Source: Eledone cirrhosa (Eukaryota). From it: DNA of 64,000 nucleotides. Numbering within the stretch: the stretch's first letter is position 1; each line of letters opens with the position of its first letter. The DNA lies in contig OZ024741.1 in assembly GCA_964016885.1 (NCBI GenBank), positions 10,726,001-10,790,000 of the forward strand. The letters run 5' to 3'. Below, one piece after another: positions 54,586 to 61,950 of this stretch. The notes under the pieces were generated by a model. That model was not told the origin of the DNA. It worked only from the letters and a program-made list of their open reading frames with translations, and made no database searches. A program made the translations under genes and the position numbers.

Positions 54586-55249
54586 TCTCACATTTCTTGA
54601 GCAGAAAGGACAAGGGGTTTAATGACAAGATGAACAATATCACAGAGACTGTCCCCCTGTAATATATCCCTGCAATATTTTATTTTATCAGTGAAAATAG
54701 AGTCCTCCCTCTCTGTCTTTAACCTTAGGATAGTAGCCCAAGAAGAAGACAGCCTCTCTATGGCTCTGACAATAATGTCTGGGACTTTAGAAAGTTGGAG
54801 GGCCTCTATCATCCAAGAGTGGGGAACATAATCAAAAGCTTTCCTGTAGTCCAGCCAGACTGTAGTCATATTCCTCCTAAGTTGTCGCACCTCCGACATC
54901 GCAGTTTTGTTGATTAGGAGTTGTTCAGCACATCCCCAAACCCTTTTCTTTCCAGCTGCTTGTTCATCTGTGATGATGTTATTATTTTCACAGTGATCTT
55001 GGAGGAATAGGTTCAGGCAGGCTGTATACATCTTATACATCAGGTTCTGGCATGCAATGGGTCGGTAGTTTATTGCCAAGTGGGTGTCTTTGTTCTTGGG
55101 GACCAGTAACGTTTGTGCTAATGTCAACCATTCTGGTATCAGTGTATCTCCCTTAAGAACTTGTTGGTAGAGGTCAGTAAGATACCTCCGATAGAATATT
55201 AGTTTTTTGTACCACTAGCCGACAATCATGTCTCTTCCTGGTGTTTTCT
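54586..55249 (-). pseudogene. Reverse transcriptase N-terminal half (domains 0-4) of the R4-like element
   Basis: ORF 54588..55127 plus upstream frame. There is an in-frame stop in domain 0 and a frameshift right after QGDSL (continues SVILFILSLNPLSFLL in another frame). The catalytic xxDD region and thumb are absent (deletion junction ~54586). Confidence 0.85.

Positions 55250-57086: not shown

Positions 57087-57142
<56 letters not shown>
57087..57142. repeat. (TA)n microsatellite
   Basis: Direct reading. Confidence 0.97.
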
Positions 57143-57144
<2 letters not shown>

Positions 57145-57230
57145 GAAAAATTGAACGGGAACAAAACAGAGAGGCAGTACAACGAATGTTTATTAATTTC
57201 ACGCTCTGGAGAGTGGGGTGGTGGTGGGGA

Positions 57231-57263
57231 ACGACGTTTCGGGCATAAGCCCTTCTTCAGGTG
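57231..57263 (-). ncRNA. Minimal hammerhead ribozyme-like motif in the Penelope pseudo-LTR
   Basis: Minus strand CAC-CTGAAGA-A-GGGC-TTAT-GCCC-GAAA-CGTC-GT: core boxes, stem II, palindromic ACGT at stem III and a GUC cleavage triplet. Stem I is weak (2 bp). Confidence 0.7.
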
Positions 57264-58711
57264 AAAAGTGTGTGGGAAGAGAGTTCAAAGGGTGTGTAGG
57301 GGAGTGATGGAGAGACATATAGCAAAAAGGGGGTGAGAGGAAACGGTGCAAATGAAATTAAAAATAAAGGCATGATCAAAATAAAATTAAAATGGGGTAA
57401 AACAGGTGGTGGAAGGGTGTGGGGCGTGTAGGGGTGGTGGCGGGTGGAGTGGGGAGAGGGAGACGGGGTGTCCGAGCGGGGAGGGCCGAAGGTGGTGTGT
57501 GTGTGTAGGTGTACGTGTGTGTGTGTGTATGTGAAAGCAAGGGTTGGGGGAAGAACGGGGTTGCATGTTCAGGAAGAGGTGTGTGTGGGTGGGGTGTAGG
57601 TCGGAGTGTGTGTGCGTGTGTGGATAGAAGGGTGGGGGGAGAGGATTCCGGAGGCTGAATGTGTAAATATGTGGTGGTACGCACGTGTGTGCGTGGTGTT
57701 TATGCGTGTTGTGGGTGTAGGTGGCGTGTGGCAAAAAAATATGTTTGTGTGTGTGGGGTGAGTGTTAAAGGTAATTCCGTAAAAAGATGTGGTGGAATGC
57801 TTAGTAAAATCCTTGGATGTGGTGGATTCCGGGATCAAGGTTCACATACGTGTAATCCGTGAAGAGATTGGTCGGAAGAGGGGAGATGTGGGGTGCGCGC
57901 GCAACAGGAAGTGGTCAGAGGGTCAAGGCAGGAGGAGTGTTGTGTGTTTGTGTGTGCGGGGAGGTGGTCAGAGGGCATAGCAGCAGTAGGGTAGAATGGT
58001 AAGTGAAGGTGTGTCAGTGTGTGCGGTGGACAGGGGAGAGGATGGGTAGGTGTAAAAGTTGGAGTGAGAAGGGGGGGTGTGTGTATTTGTAGAGGTGTTA
58101 GTGGGATGAGTGAGTGTTTGAGAAAGGGTATGGGTGGAGCGGGGAGAGAAGGGTGTGGGGGACGATGGAGGGAGTGTAGTGTACTGGTGTGTGTGTTTGG
58201 TGAAGGGGGTGTTAGTGGGTGTTAGTATACAGGAGGTGGAGAAAGGGTTGAATGCGGGTGTGAGTGGGGGTCAGTGGTGGTAGGGTGTGTAGAGTGGGTG
58301 GTGTAAGAGGGTGTGTGTGTACGTGTGCGTAGGGTTGGGGGGTGTTAGTGATGTTAGTTGCGTGTAGGGTAGGTGGTGTAAGTGGGTGAGTGTGTTCGTG
58401 TGCTTGGGGTCAGGGGGTGTTAGTGATGTTAGTTGCGGGGTGGTGGGGTGGATGTGTGGGGGTGAGGGTTAGTGGTGGTAGTAGGGTGTGTGTTTAGTGT
58501 GAGTGCGTGTATATATGTGCCGGTGGGTGTGTGCGTGTGATAAGGAGGGGGAGGAGAAGAAGGGAGGGATGTTAGTATGTTAGTTGGGGAAGGGTGGTCG
58601 GATGTGGGGTGGAGGTGTTAGTATTGTTAGTTGTGGGGTGGGCGGTGAAAAGGAGGGGGGTGTTAGTGGTGTTAGTGGGGGATATGTGTGGGGGGAGGGG
58701 GCGGTCGAAGG

Positions 58712-59844
58712 TTAAAGGAATAAGGGTGGGGAGTTCAGGCCGGGGGGAGTGTGGGTCTGTAAGATGAAGATGGTTCGTTGTTCAACTCTTAGGAGATTGG
58801 CGGGTGTTCCGTGGCATTGGAGTAGGCCACAGACTGTGAGATGGTGTGTGGAATGTCCAGGGGCACCAAAGTGGCGGGCGATGGGGGAACTACCACCGAG
58901 ACGAATATCCCGGAGGTGCTCAGTAAATCTGTCCGCCAGGCGACGTCCAGTCTGTCCGTAGACTGGGTTGGAGGAGGTGCAGCGGAAGGCATGCCGGACA
59001 GAGAGAGAGTGGCCGTTGGGACCCTGGAAGGTGGTGGTGTTGGTGATGTGGGGACAGGTGTTGCAGCGGGGCCTAGAACAGGGAAAGGAACCGGGGGGAA
59101 GAGAGCGTGGGTTGGGGGTAGGGATCTGTGGACGAGGAGGGTGCGGAGATTGCGTGCGCGTTTGAAGGAGGGGAGTGGTGGTGCTGGGAAGATGTGGAAG
59201 GTGGAGGGGTCGAACTGGAGGCGTCGGAAGAGGCGTCGGATGGTGCGGTGGAGGGGTATGGTGGAGGGGTGGTAGGTGAGGGGGAGGGGGAGACGGTGGG
59301 TGGGTGTGCGGTGGTGTGGGGTGAGGGTGGTGGAGCGGTGGTCAGCACGGGCGCGGGTGAGAGCGGTGTGGACGAGAGTGGGGGGATAACCTCTGCGGAT
59401 GAAATGGCTGACTAGGGAAAGGGCCTGGGACTCAAAGTCGGCGGATCCTGAGGAGTTGGGAGTAGGGAATAGAGTGTTTAGTGTGTGTAGGGTGGGAAGA
59501 GGTGAAGTCGAGGTAAGAGTGGGAGTCGATGGGTTTGAAGAAGGCGGAGGTGACGAGGGAGTGGTGGGAGGGATCGAAGGCGACGGAGATGTCTAAGAAG
59601 TGGACGTGGGTGGTGGAGATAGAGGTGGTGAAGTGGAGGGAGGGGTGGAAGGAGCAGAAGAAGGAGAGAAAGGAGTCGAGCTGTTCTCGGGTGAGGGTCG
59701 TGGCTCCGATACAGTCGTCGATGTAACGACCGTACAGTTCGGGCGTGGGGCCGGTGTACTGAGCAAAGATTTGGGCCTCAACATGGCCAACAAAAAGGTT
59801 GGCATAGTTTGGGCCCATTCTTGTACCCATGGCTACCCCCGTGA

Positions 59845-59846
<2 letters not shown>
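58712..59846 (-). pseudogene. Penelope-like RT (C-terminal half) + Cys-rich linker + GIY-YIG endonuclease, frameshifted
   Basis: Reconstructed minus-strand translation: VTGVAMGTRMGPNYANLF..RYIDD..FLD..KPIDSHSYL..SSHP..IPYSQLLRIRRL / DFESQ..FIRRGYP..LTYHP..SFKRARNLRTLLV / GSFPCSRPRCNTCPHI..FRCTSSNPVY-GQTGRRLADRFTEH..ARHF..EQRTIFILQTHTPPGLN..* (TAA at 58714-58712). Two frameshifts. Confidence 0.92.

Positions 59847-59904
<58 letters not shown>
59847..59904. repeat. (TA)n microsatellite
   Basis: Direct reading. Confidence 0.97.
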
Positions 59905-59909
<5 letters not shown>

Positions 59910-60043
59910 ATACTTTGGGAGGGTCATGTTGCCAATAAGAAATACACACACCAGTTGCTTTCACTTCAATTTATTATAAATATAAATTTTATAAATTTCC
60001 GGTTGGTTGTTTGGTTCCAGAACCGGATGGTTGTTCTTATATT

Positions 60044-60086
60044 GTCAAAGTTCTTTCGTCACACATTCTGTGACCCCTTCAGTGAC
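60044..60086 (-). ncRNA. Hammerhead motif (left arm) with core change CTGAAGA>CTGAAGG
   Basis: Reverse complement GTCA-CTGAAGG-G-GTCACA-GAATG-TGTGAC-GAAAGAACTT-TGAC; otherwise identical to the right arm. Confidence 0.7.
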
Positions 60087-60301
60087 TGGGGATTCTTTTC
60101 TGTGTGTTTTTATTTGAAACACACACAAATAGAACAAACAACTAACTAGTAACATGTAAATAAACAAATAAATAAACAAATAAAAACACACACAGACACC
60201 CGGATGTAACACATGCGCAAACTAAGCACACAGCACACACAAAAACAAGATGGCGTAGGACAGAACAAAGGAGAGGCACAAAACAAAGAAAAGAATCTCC
60301 A

Positions 60302-60344
60302 GTCACTGAAGAGGTCACAGAATGTGTGACGAAAGAACTTTGAC
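60302..60344 (+). ncRNA. Minimal type I hammerhead ribozyme (right arm)
   Basis: GTCA-CTGAAGA-G-GTCACA-GAATG-TGTGAC-GAAA-G-AA-CTT-TGAC: stem I GTCA/TGAC, a 6-bp stem II, short stem III AG/CT and NUH=CUU. Confidence 0.8.
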
Positions 60345-60690
60345 AATATAAGAACAACCATCCGGTTGTGGAACCAACCAACCAACCGGAAATTTATAAA
60401 ATTTATAATAAATTGAACTGAAACAACTGGTGCGTGTGTTTCTTATTGACAACATGACCCTCCCAAAGTATAACAATATCGGTTTTAACACACGTTTTCA
60501 GATAAAAAATCTTGCTAAACAATTCAGAAACGAAATATATATATGTATTGTTGTAATAATATTGTCAGAAATGATAACAGTACACACTCACTGTTTGGTT
60601 GGTTTTCACTGCTGTATCTTTTATATCTCCATAGTTAATTTATTTGGCAATCAATGTGTATCACTGATTGACCAGCGGTTAAAAATACAG

Positions 60691-60743
<53 letters not shown>
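60691..60743. repeat. (TA)n microsatellite
   Basis: Direct reading. Confidence 0.95.
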
Positions 60744-60747
<4 letters not shown>

Positions 60748-60783
60748 ATCAAAGTTCTTTCGATATGCGACCTCATCAGTGGT
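60748..60783 (-). ncRNA. Degenerate hammerhead fragment between TA runs
   Basis: Reverse complement ACCA-CTGATGA-GGTCGCATATC-GAAAGAACTT-TGAT. It shares GAAAGAACTTTGA with the fold-back element; stems I and II are imperfect. Confidence 0.55.
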
Positions 60784-60978
60784 ACTATATATATATAGTA
60801 ATGTTAATAAATGTGAAGACTAAAATCCGAAGAGGGCTCGATAAGGATAATATATATATCAAACTATATAAAACCATAGAGCAAATATTTATAAAAATAA
60901 CAGGTTAAAGTTTAAGCAAAGAATCGCTGCTGTCACCCTTAACACTTTCAGAAGATCCTGTTAAGGGTGAAAGCCTTA

Positions 60979-61349: not shown

Positions 61350-61950
61350 GGCGGTGGATTGGCAACACCAGGAGAACATCGGATAAGATGCTTTGTAACA
61401 TATAGTTACGGCCCTTTACATTCTGAAATTACATCTCACTGCGGTTAGCTTTGCCATTCATTCTTACAAGGTCGATAAAATAAAGTACCAGTAATACACT
61501 GGAGGCGATTTATTCGACTTTCCCTTTCCCCCAAATTGTTGGCCTTGTGCCTAAATCAGAAACAATTATTATCATAGCGGTGAATTGGCAGAACCAGTAG
61601 AGCATCGGGTAACATGCTTTGTAACATATAACACGGCCCTTGACATTCTGTGGTCAAATCCCGCCGAGGTTAGCTTTACCTTTCATCATTAAGAGGTCGG
61701 TAAAATAAAGTACCAGTAACACACTGAGATCAATTTAATCGACTTTCTGCTTCCCCTTCAAATTGCTGGCCTTTTGCCAAATGTTGAAACAATTATTAAT
61801 AGAACGGTGGATTAGCAATATCGGTAGAGCGTCGGACAACATGCTTTGTGGTATATAGTTACGGCCCTTTACATTCTGACGTCGTTTTAATCGACTCTCC
61901 CCTCTCCTTTATATTGCTGGCCTTCTGCCAAAAAGTAGAAATAATTATTA
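61350..61950 (+). mobile_element. Three head-to-tail diverged tRNA-type SINE copies (~226-bp period; third internally deleted)
   Basis: Starts GGCGGTGGATTGGC (61350), AGCGGTGAATTGGC (61576) and AACGGTGGATTAGC (61803). A-box-like TGGCAGAACCAGTAG and B-box-like GGTCAAATCC are present. Copies 1-2 share the core GGTCG(A/G)TAAAATAAAGTACCAGTAA, and each ends GAAA(C/T)AATTATTA. Confidence 0.8.

What the first reader, a model, noticed from the sequence alone, without database searches (positions are those of the whole stretch)
59902..60479. MITE-shaped palindromic element with a hammerhead ribozyme in each arm, pointing outward
Seen: a ~580-bp non-coding element with ~200-bp inverted arms. Each arm reads GTCA-CTGAAG(A/G)-G-GTCACA-GAATG-TGTGAC-GAAAGAACTT-TGAC toward the element end, so transcription of either strand yields a hammerhead followed by ~135 nt of terminus. 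The right copy has an intact core; the left has A9>G. The left arm continues to ~60114, matching 60177-60195 with a ~100-bp deletion, so the arms derive from one longer sequence. Established: minimal hammerheads with very short stem III mark Penelope pseudo-LTRs and retrozymes, are thought to act as dimers, and PLE insertions often show inverted terminal copies. Inference: this is a non-autonomous Penelope-type retroelement that repeat annotators would mislabel as a DNA-transposon MITE, possibly a ribozyme-carrying fold-back family. Its hammerhead differs from that of the adjacent Neptune-like element, so the mobilising partner is another PLE.
Basis: partly seen in the sequence, partly recalled or inferred. 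Interest (0 to 1): 0.75.

Follow-up and report, generated by a model that had tools for sequence, protein, structure and literature searches.

The report
Two-armed Penelope retrotransposon stump
This mirror-image DNA is one short insertion of a very common jumping gene of a known kind (Penelope-like), made of two back-to-back copies of the gene's end, each with a predicted self-cutting RNA motif; it is not a separate family, but its sister copies suggest that both halves are likely copied from one RNA molecule.

Summary
The palindrome and both hammerhead motifs are real, but the element runs 57 nt further right (to 60536) and is not a fixed, non-autonomous family. Its arms are the 3' end (pLTR) of an autonomous ~4-kb RT + C-terminal GIY-YIG Penelope-like element (Neptune/Nematis type) with over 30,000 end copies. 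Its central junction occurs once in the genome. Inverted pLTR, one-sided tail and opposite-strand minimal hammerheads are all published (PMC3846280, PMC8557442, PMC4209133). The hammerhead fold is supported by three compensatory pairs against a sister family; cleavage is untested and arm 5' ends do not pile up at the cut (3 of 63). Sister insertions add mechanism: 52 of 53 two-armed insertions carry the tail on exactly one outer end, and in 4 of 4 A-to-G hyper-edited ones both arms share the edits, two patterns being genome-unique. Best reading: both cut DNA strands prime on one RNA, at two fixed sites. This scan noted the same layout, tail rule and shared edits before, on other DNA and in this genome.

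The parts
59847..59901 (.). (TA)n target microsatellite, left flank
   Evidence: Sequence; nearly all family ends abut (TA)n
59902..60099 (-). Left (inverted) arm: last ~198 nt of the pLTR, ending at the short (tail-less) end
60044..60086 (-). Left minimal type I hammerhead motif, core damaged by A9>G at 60076 (predicted inactive)
   Evidence: folds differently from the right copy
60098..60116 (-). Junction piece matching 60177-60195; likely a template jump at the inversion point
   Evidence: junction unique in genome; similar extra pieces at other junctions
60117..60479 (+). Right arm: almost the whole 3' UTR/pLTR, beginning about 10 nt after the parent ORF's stop codon
60246..60255 (+). YY1-site-like motif just inside a modest cluster of arm 5' ends; candidate transcription start region (inferred)
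   Evidence: 14 of 63 arm 5' ends in a 27-nt window, scan p 0.02; L1 YY1 site in PMC2912911
60302..60344 (+). Right minimal type I hammerhead motif, intact core, predicted cut 60340/60341
60454..60536 (+). Start of the parent ORF: first ATG in the last 26 nt of the pLTR, frame continuing through the tail
   Evidence: frame continues into the body in tandem copies L039, L046, L053
60480..60536 (+).

Best explanation
This is a single 5'-truncated insertion of an autonomous Penelope-like retrotransposon into a (TA)n repeat, made of two head-to-head copies of the element's 3' end, and it was likely built when both strands of the cut DNA primed reverse transcription on one RNA at two fixed start sites 57-58 nt apart. 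Shown: parent element with RT and C-terminal GIY-YIG; two fixed outer ends, variable inner ends; one tail per insertion; shared A-to-G marks in both arms of edited sister insertions. Inferred: the endonuclease cuts both strands of (TA)n; each 3' end primes at one of two internal AT-rich sites (which end in AATAT or AAAT and merge with the target), perhaps by a protein dimer as predicted for the anole element; the two incomplete cDNAs are joined at their inner ends, sometimes with a short template jump. The hammerheads are passengers of the pLTR, kept under selection in source elements but dead-end in this stump; they point outward only because the arms do.
For: Parent: (RT motif, GIY-YIG 22.9 bits over cut-off 22.6, tandem pLTR in 7 of 20 and inverted upstream piece in 13 of 20 long copies). 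Copy number: 31,715 exact end matches; 14,091 tailed and 16,419 tail-less ends. Tail rule: 34 of 35 head-to-head pairs directly, the 35th (L170) when the outer end of its tandem is counted; second sample 17 of 18 after resolving three candidates. The tail arm is the longer one in only 18 of 35, so a fold-back copy of one cDNA cannot make all of them. Shared edits: L170 34 of 34, L160 19 of 20 in the overlap, L188/L189 94-95 sites, L178 10 shared plus 2 on one arm; the L160 and L170 patterns occur only in their own two arms. The window's arms share a variant seen in 2 of 48 arms, both its own. In vitro precedent: both strands cut and extended, two internal RT starts bounding the tail (PMC11167929).
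Against: One two-tailed pair (L191). Some pairs differ at subfamily-type positions (pairs 20 and 22), which may mean two templates or age. Arm-to-arm gene conversion after insertion could also equalise arms; not excluded. Only 4 informative edited insertions, found with strict patterns. In vitro, both strands used both start sites alike (PMC11167929), so strict pairing is not shown there. 40 of 110 arms are unpaired. The window's own arms differ at 5% of sites and carry no edit cluster, so the one-RNA step is carried over from sister copies.
Confidence: 0.72

Rival explanations
1. Same parent element and two priming events, but each arm is copied from its own RNA molecule; arms look alike because one donor dominates or because they were later equalised by gene conversion.
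For: Pairs 20 and 22 differ at subfamily-type sites; own-arm versus other-arm divergence (2.2% versus 5.0%) is also expected from shared age and donor.
Against: Genome-unique edit patterns shared by both arms; no edited/unedited pair in 4 informative cases; independent RNAs would not by themselves give one tail per insertion.
Confidence: 0.15
2. One priming event followed by fold-back: the nascent cDNA primes on itself (or on an antisense template) and copies itself to make the inverted arm, as suggested for rotifer Penelope.
For: Self-priming proposed in PMC3846280; fits L188/L189 (both arms start at -912), L178 and L170, where the tail lies within the longer strand; AT-rich self-complementary block near -94 coincides with several junctions.
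Against: In about half of the pairs the tail is on the shorter arm, including edited L160, so the tail could not be copied from the longer arm.
Confidence: 0.08
3. One reading: a non-autonomous, fixed palindromic ribozyme-carrying family mobilised in trans by another PLE.
For: Three of the 30 top loci are ~580-600-bp palindromes; palindromes are common in the genome.
Against: Those three have different junctions; the window's junction has 1 match with up to 2 mismatches; arm lengths range from under 40 to over 2,700 nt and run into the ORF; left core is damaged.
Confidence: 0.03
4. DNA-transposon MITE with terminal inverted repeats; the hammerhead look is chance.
For: Shape only; Rfam finds no hammerhead; folding z-score is not unusual (-0.34).
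Against: Arms are the 3' UTR of an RT/GIY-YIG ORF; ends are asymmetric; covariation in helices I and II.
Confidence: 0.01

Closest known systems
'Typical Penelope structure' of endonuclease-positive PLEs (Pen2a_Av, PMC3846280, passages read; Fig. 2 legend and text of PMC8557442, passages)
   Same: Partial tandems forming pLTRs, inverted 5'-truncated copy at the 5' end, tail on one end, pLTR plus tail encoding the first residues of the ORF, microsatellite targets hiding any TSD.
   Different: Tail is 57-58 nt rather than 30-40; this copy holds no ORF body; the papers call the tail optional, while here it is on exactly one outer end in 52 of 53 two-armed insertions.
Minimal PLE hammerheads (Cervera and de la Pena 2014, PMC4209133; parts 1-2 of 4 read; figures and supplements not seen)
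   Same: Long helix II, 4-5-bp helix I, unpaired base between positions 9 and 10.1, G10.1-C11.1, rudimentary helix III; the paper reports dual motifs 100-700 bp apart on opposite strands.
   Different: Loop 3 is AA, not palindromic; main subfamily has U at the cut site, a second one has A; predicted self-duplex of the helix III segment is weak (-2.0 kcal/mol).
Anole Poseidon element PAc in vitro (Frangieh et al. 2024, PMC11167929; parts 1-2 of 4 and a term search)
   Same: Two internal RT start sites bounding the tail; AT-rich target; both strands cut and extended; no sign of RNA ends at the hammerhead cut.
   Different: Different clade; here the ORF starts ~115 nt after the hammerhead cut instead of inside helix II; the parts read do not address inverted insertions.
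Twin priming of LINE-1 (passage in PMC2912911)
   Same: Both target strands prime on one RNA, giving an inversion joined by microhomology.
   Different: L1 arms do not overlap and the second site is variable (established knowledge); here both sites are fixed and the arms copy the same stretch twice.
Non-LTR retrozymes (10.64898/2026.07.22.740005, part 1 of 5 read)
   Same: Non-coding, hammerhead-bearing, pLTR-related sequence.
   Different: Retrozymes are head-to-tail tandem arrays of a fixed monomer; this is head-to-head, of variable length and continuous with an ORF in sister copies.

Membership tests
C-terminal EN+ Penelope-like element | Single ORF with RT followed by GIY-YIG endonuclease | tested here: met
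   L043 662-aa open frame and other copies; Pfam RVT_1 weak (E 1e-4, below cut-off) and GIY-YIG at cut-off. No fully intact copy was seen among loci read.
C-terminal EN+ Penelope-like element | pLTRs from partial tandems, inverted upstream copy, tail | tested here: met
   (L053 shows inverted copy, upstream pLTR with tail, body, downstream pLTR)
C-terminal EN+ Penelope-like element | CCHH motif in the endonuclease and DKG-type motif before RT | tested here: met
   Two cysteines between the GIY and YIG boxes and HxxxxH downstream; DKSG variant; criteria from PMC8557442
Neptune/Nematis type | CX2-5CxxC linker between RT and EN; (TA)n targets | tested here: met
   CX4CxxC; ends abut (TA)n
Neptune clade proper | Phylogenetic placement with reference Neptune RTs | not tested
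   No named reference sequences came from the tools (one search hits are mostly unnamed); Neptune versus Nematis left open
Naiad/Chlamys or Hydra | N-terminal EN (Naiad/Chlamys); loss of CCHH (Hydra) | tested here: not met
   EN is C-terminal and has CCHH
Minimal type I hammerhead | Core boxes and helices conserved, with covariation | tested here: met
   3 pairs change on both sides between families A and B, 93% cells paired (effectively one comparison of two lineages); core 2.1% and stems 1.8% divergence versus 8.0% free positions and 5.0% flank, 0 of 14 subfamily markers in core or stems
Minimal type I hammerhead | Self-cleavage, as dimer or with protein help | not testable with these tools
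   Indirect test negative: 3 of 63 arm 5' ends near the cut, about 2.7 expected
Non-autonomous fixed family (MITE-like or retrozyme) | Same internal structure repeated at many loci | tested here: not met
DNA-transposon MITE | Symmetric TIRs shared with a transposase element | tested here: not met
   Arms belong to an RT/GIY-YIG element and the two ends differ by the tail

The most novel reading that the evidence does not exclude
Penelope-like elements integrate by obligate paired priming: two enzymes copy the same stretch of one linear RNA from two fixed sites, one per cut strand, so the tail and the inverted arm are one event. ADAR scars prove the single template; in tandem insertions the tail arm is primed on the upstream pLTR of a linear read-through RNA (L170: upstream pLTR and inverted arm share 34 edits, the terminal pLTR has none of them), which argues against a circular template. 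In five of six heavily edited insertions the last ~100 nt plus tail are almost free of edits, a possible footprint of the bound protein.
Probability: 0.55. Interest if true: 0.6.

Novelty: new member of a known kind. Interest (0 to 1): 0.3.

Why it matters
As an object it is ordinary: one of thousands of two-armed stumps of a known retroelement class, worth flagging only because annotators could call it a MITE. The family matters more than the copy. How Penelope-like elements make their inverted ends and one-sided tail is still open in the papers read, and this genome offers about 30,000 ends plus RNA-editing scars that act as single-molecule barcodes, which makes the one-RNA paired-priming model testable by computation and in the existing in vitro system.

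Tried and rejected
Rfam scans found no hammerhead at E up to 10; not taken as evidence against, since PMC4209133 needed a special descriptor. Naiad assignment (my first recall) rejected: EN is C-terminal. Pile-up of arm 5' ends at the hammerhead cut: not found, 3 of 63, unlike notes e1-8622537 and e1-9820663 on other genomes. The cluster of 5' ends near -94 is treated as partly an alignment break in a length-variable AT-rich block. Expression: no RNA holder listed; contigs laid only confirm that the family and its variants occur in three runs and cannot show RNA ends. No TSD could be read because both flanks are (TA)n. Thermodynamic z-score of the motif is unremarkable. NCBIfam scan uninformative. 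Rows dropped: 11 of 121 3'-reaching arms (family-B ends and short weak hits) before the counts; loci L058-L087 were left out because they were selected by the core pattern. In one search, only the 3 discordant candidates of 17 were fetched and checked. Paper searches for ADAR-edited Penelope copies (0 papers; 1 listing, not relevant by abstract start), twin priming in PLEs (3 listings, not read) and recent pLTR/tail work (2 listings) found no statement of the one-RNA model; the library lacks most subscription journals, and no supplements were read.

Full report
Observation. One correction: the right arm continues through 57 more family-conserved bases to 60536 before (TA)n resumes. Rfam does not detect the motif.

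What it is. A search of the window's own 3.0-Gb genome gave 5,393 candidates, 40 scored. Of the 30 loci fetched, 27 continue upstream of the right arm into shared sequence for 23 to over 1,500 nt, and translate to RT and GIY-YIG frames. Searching with the 5' part of the ORF gave 20 long copies: 7 have a direct upstream pLTR and 13 an inverted upstream piece. L053 shows the full layout with a unit of about 4.0 kb. The ORF's first ATG lies in the last 26 nt of the pLTR (window 60454) and the frame runs through the tail into the body. The protein has a DKSG motif, a CX4CxxC linker and a CCHH-type C-terminal GIY-YIG, which fits the Neptune/Nematis type by the criteria of PMC8557442; no tree was built. 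The best named homologue is an Octopus vulgaris predicted protein at 64% identity, so the host is likely an octopus (inference). An 18-mer near the end has 31,715 exact matches, control 0. The window's central junction matches only itself with up to 2 mismatches. So this is one stump of an autonomous element, not a fixed palindromic family.

Hammerhead. A pattern for core plus helix III segment has 16,096 matches, control 0, in two families. Family B is a related PLE (about 70% nucleotide identity in the ORF). Between A and B, three pairs change on both sides, two in helix II and one in helix I; family B has one mismatch in helix I. This is one comparison of two lineages, not many. Within family A, core and stem positions diverge 2.1% and 1.8%, free positions 8.0%, flanks 5.0%; none of 14 subfamily markers falls in core or stems; 116 of 143 arms keep an intact core. 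A subfamily has A at the cut site and a change that adds a fifth helix I pair. These features match the minimal PLE hammerheads of PMC4209133, which also reports opposite-strand pairs 100-700 bp apart and low activity in vitro. Activity here is untested. Arm 5' ends show no excess at the cut: 3 of 63 within -150..-136, about 2.7 expected. They do show a modest cluster at -260..-234 (14 of 63, scan p 0.02), just 5' of a motif like the YY1 site that positions L1 transcription starts; I read it tentatively as the RNA 5' end.

How the arms form. I took the first 100 listed end matches on contig C1, fetched their surroundings and mapped them to natural copy L053. After dropping 11 of 121 arms (family B ends, short weak hits), 110 arms include 35 head-to-head pairs. 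Outer ends fall at two fixed sites; 34 pairs have the tail on exactly one arm and the 35th does so at the outer end of its tandem. A second sample from the lists gave 17 candidates: 14 concordant by position alone; of three discordant ones fetched, L192 is a tandem that obeys the rule, L193 is two insertions that each obey it, and L191 is a true two-tailed pair: 17 of 18. Tailed and tail-less ends are near equal genome-wide (14,091 and 16,419). The tail arm is the longer in 18 of 35 pairs, so self-copying of one cDNA cannot be general. Two of the 35 pairs carry dense element-sense A-to-G changes on both arms (L170 34 of 34 shared; L160 19 of 20 in the overlap), and their patterns occur nowhere else in the genome. 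Two targeted patterns found further edited copies; the two with overlapping arms also share edits (L188/L189, L178), and no edited/unedited overlap was seen (4 of 4). ADAR as the cause is inferred from strand-specific A-to-G clusters; the 5'-neighbour counts were too small to confirm it. In L170 the terminal pLTR lacks the edits that the upstream pLTR and the inverted arm share, pointing to a linear, longer-than-unit RNA. The window's own arms share a variant found in no other of 48 arms.

Mechanism. Shown in vitro for a different PLE: both target strands are cut and extended, RT starts at two internal sites that bound the tail, hammerhead cleavage is not needed for insertion, and a dimer is predicted (PMC11167929). 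Combining this with the counts above, the likely route is paired priming on one RNA, one strand at each site, with the two partial cDNAs joined inside. Rivals are two RNAs plus conversion, and fold-back self-priming (PMC3846280). I put 0.72 on the full account; the identity as a PLE stump alone is about 0.97.

Novelty. Inverted pLTR, one-sided tail, ORF start in the pLTR and opposite-strand hammerheads are in print. The strict one-tail rule and the one-RNA evidence were not found in my paper searches, which cover open-access text only. This scan's earlier notes report the same layout, rule and shared edits on other DNA and in this genome; they gave me the leads to test junction pile-ups and shared variants, and are not counted as support. 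Verdict: real, new member of a known kind, interest 0.3.

Noticed in passing
window 1-53550: A 27-bp tandem satellite of about 1,958 copies; the long stop-free frames on both strands likely come from it, and their Pfam hits look like repeat artefacts.
   Followed up: partly
window 57142-59846, minus strand: 5'-truncated Neptune-like PLE of another family (RT and endonuclease fragments) with its own minimal hammerhead motif at 57260, which also has an unpaired base before helix II.
   Followed up: partly
window 60546-60788, minus strand: 3' fragment of sister family B with a degenerate hammerhead at 60779; it ends about 26 nt before the usual family end, again at an AATAT merging with (TA)n.
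   Followed up: partly
window 54588-55214, minus strand: Fragment of another reverse transcriptase (Pfam RVT_1, E 2e-9), family not assigned.
   Followed up: partly
window 61352-61950: Three diverged head-to-tail copies of a ~226-bp dispersed repeat, also matched by L070.
   Followed up: no
L160, L170, L178, L186, L187, L188/L189: Hyper-edited copies (up to 132 A-to-G of 142 changes in L187). In five of these six insertions edits stop near -103 and spare the last 100 nt and tail (0 of 45 As in L170 and L160 tail arms; single stray sites in L178); L186 is edited up to -6.
   Followed up: partly
L053 and other long copies, N-terminal ORF region: A long low-complexity N/T/H-rich insert lies in the ORF before the RT and is prone to frameshifts, recalling the N-rich inserts described in PMC3846280.
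   Followed up: no
L109-L112, L097/L098, L121, L148: Very small palindromes (about 150-250 bp) that lack the hammerhead altogether yet keep the one-tail rule.
   Followed up: yes
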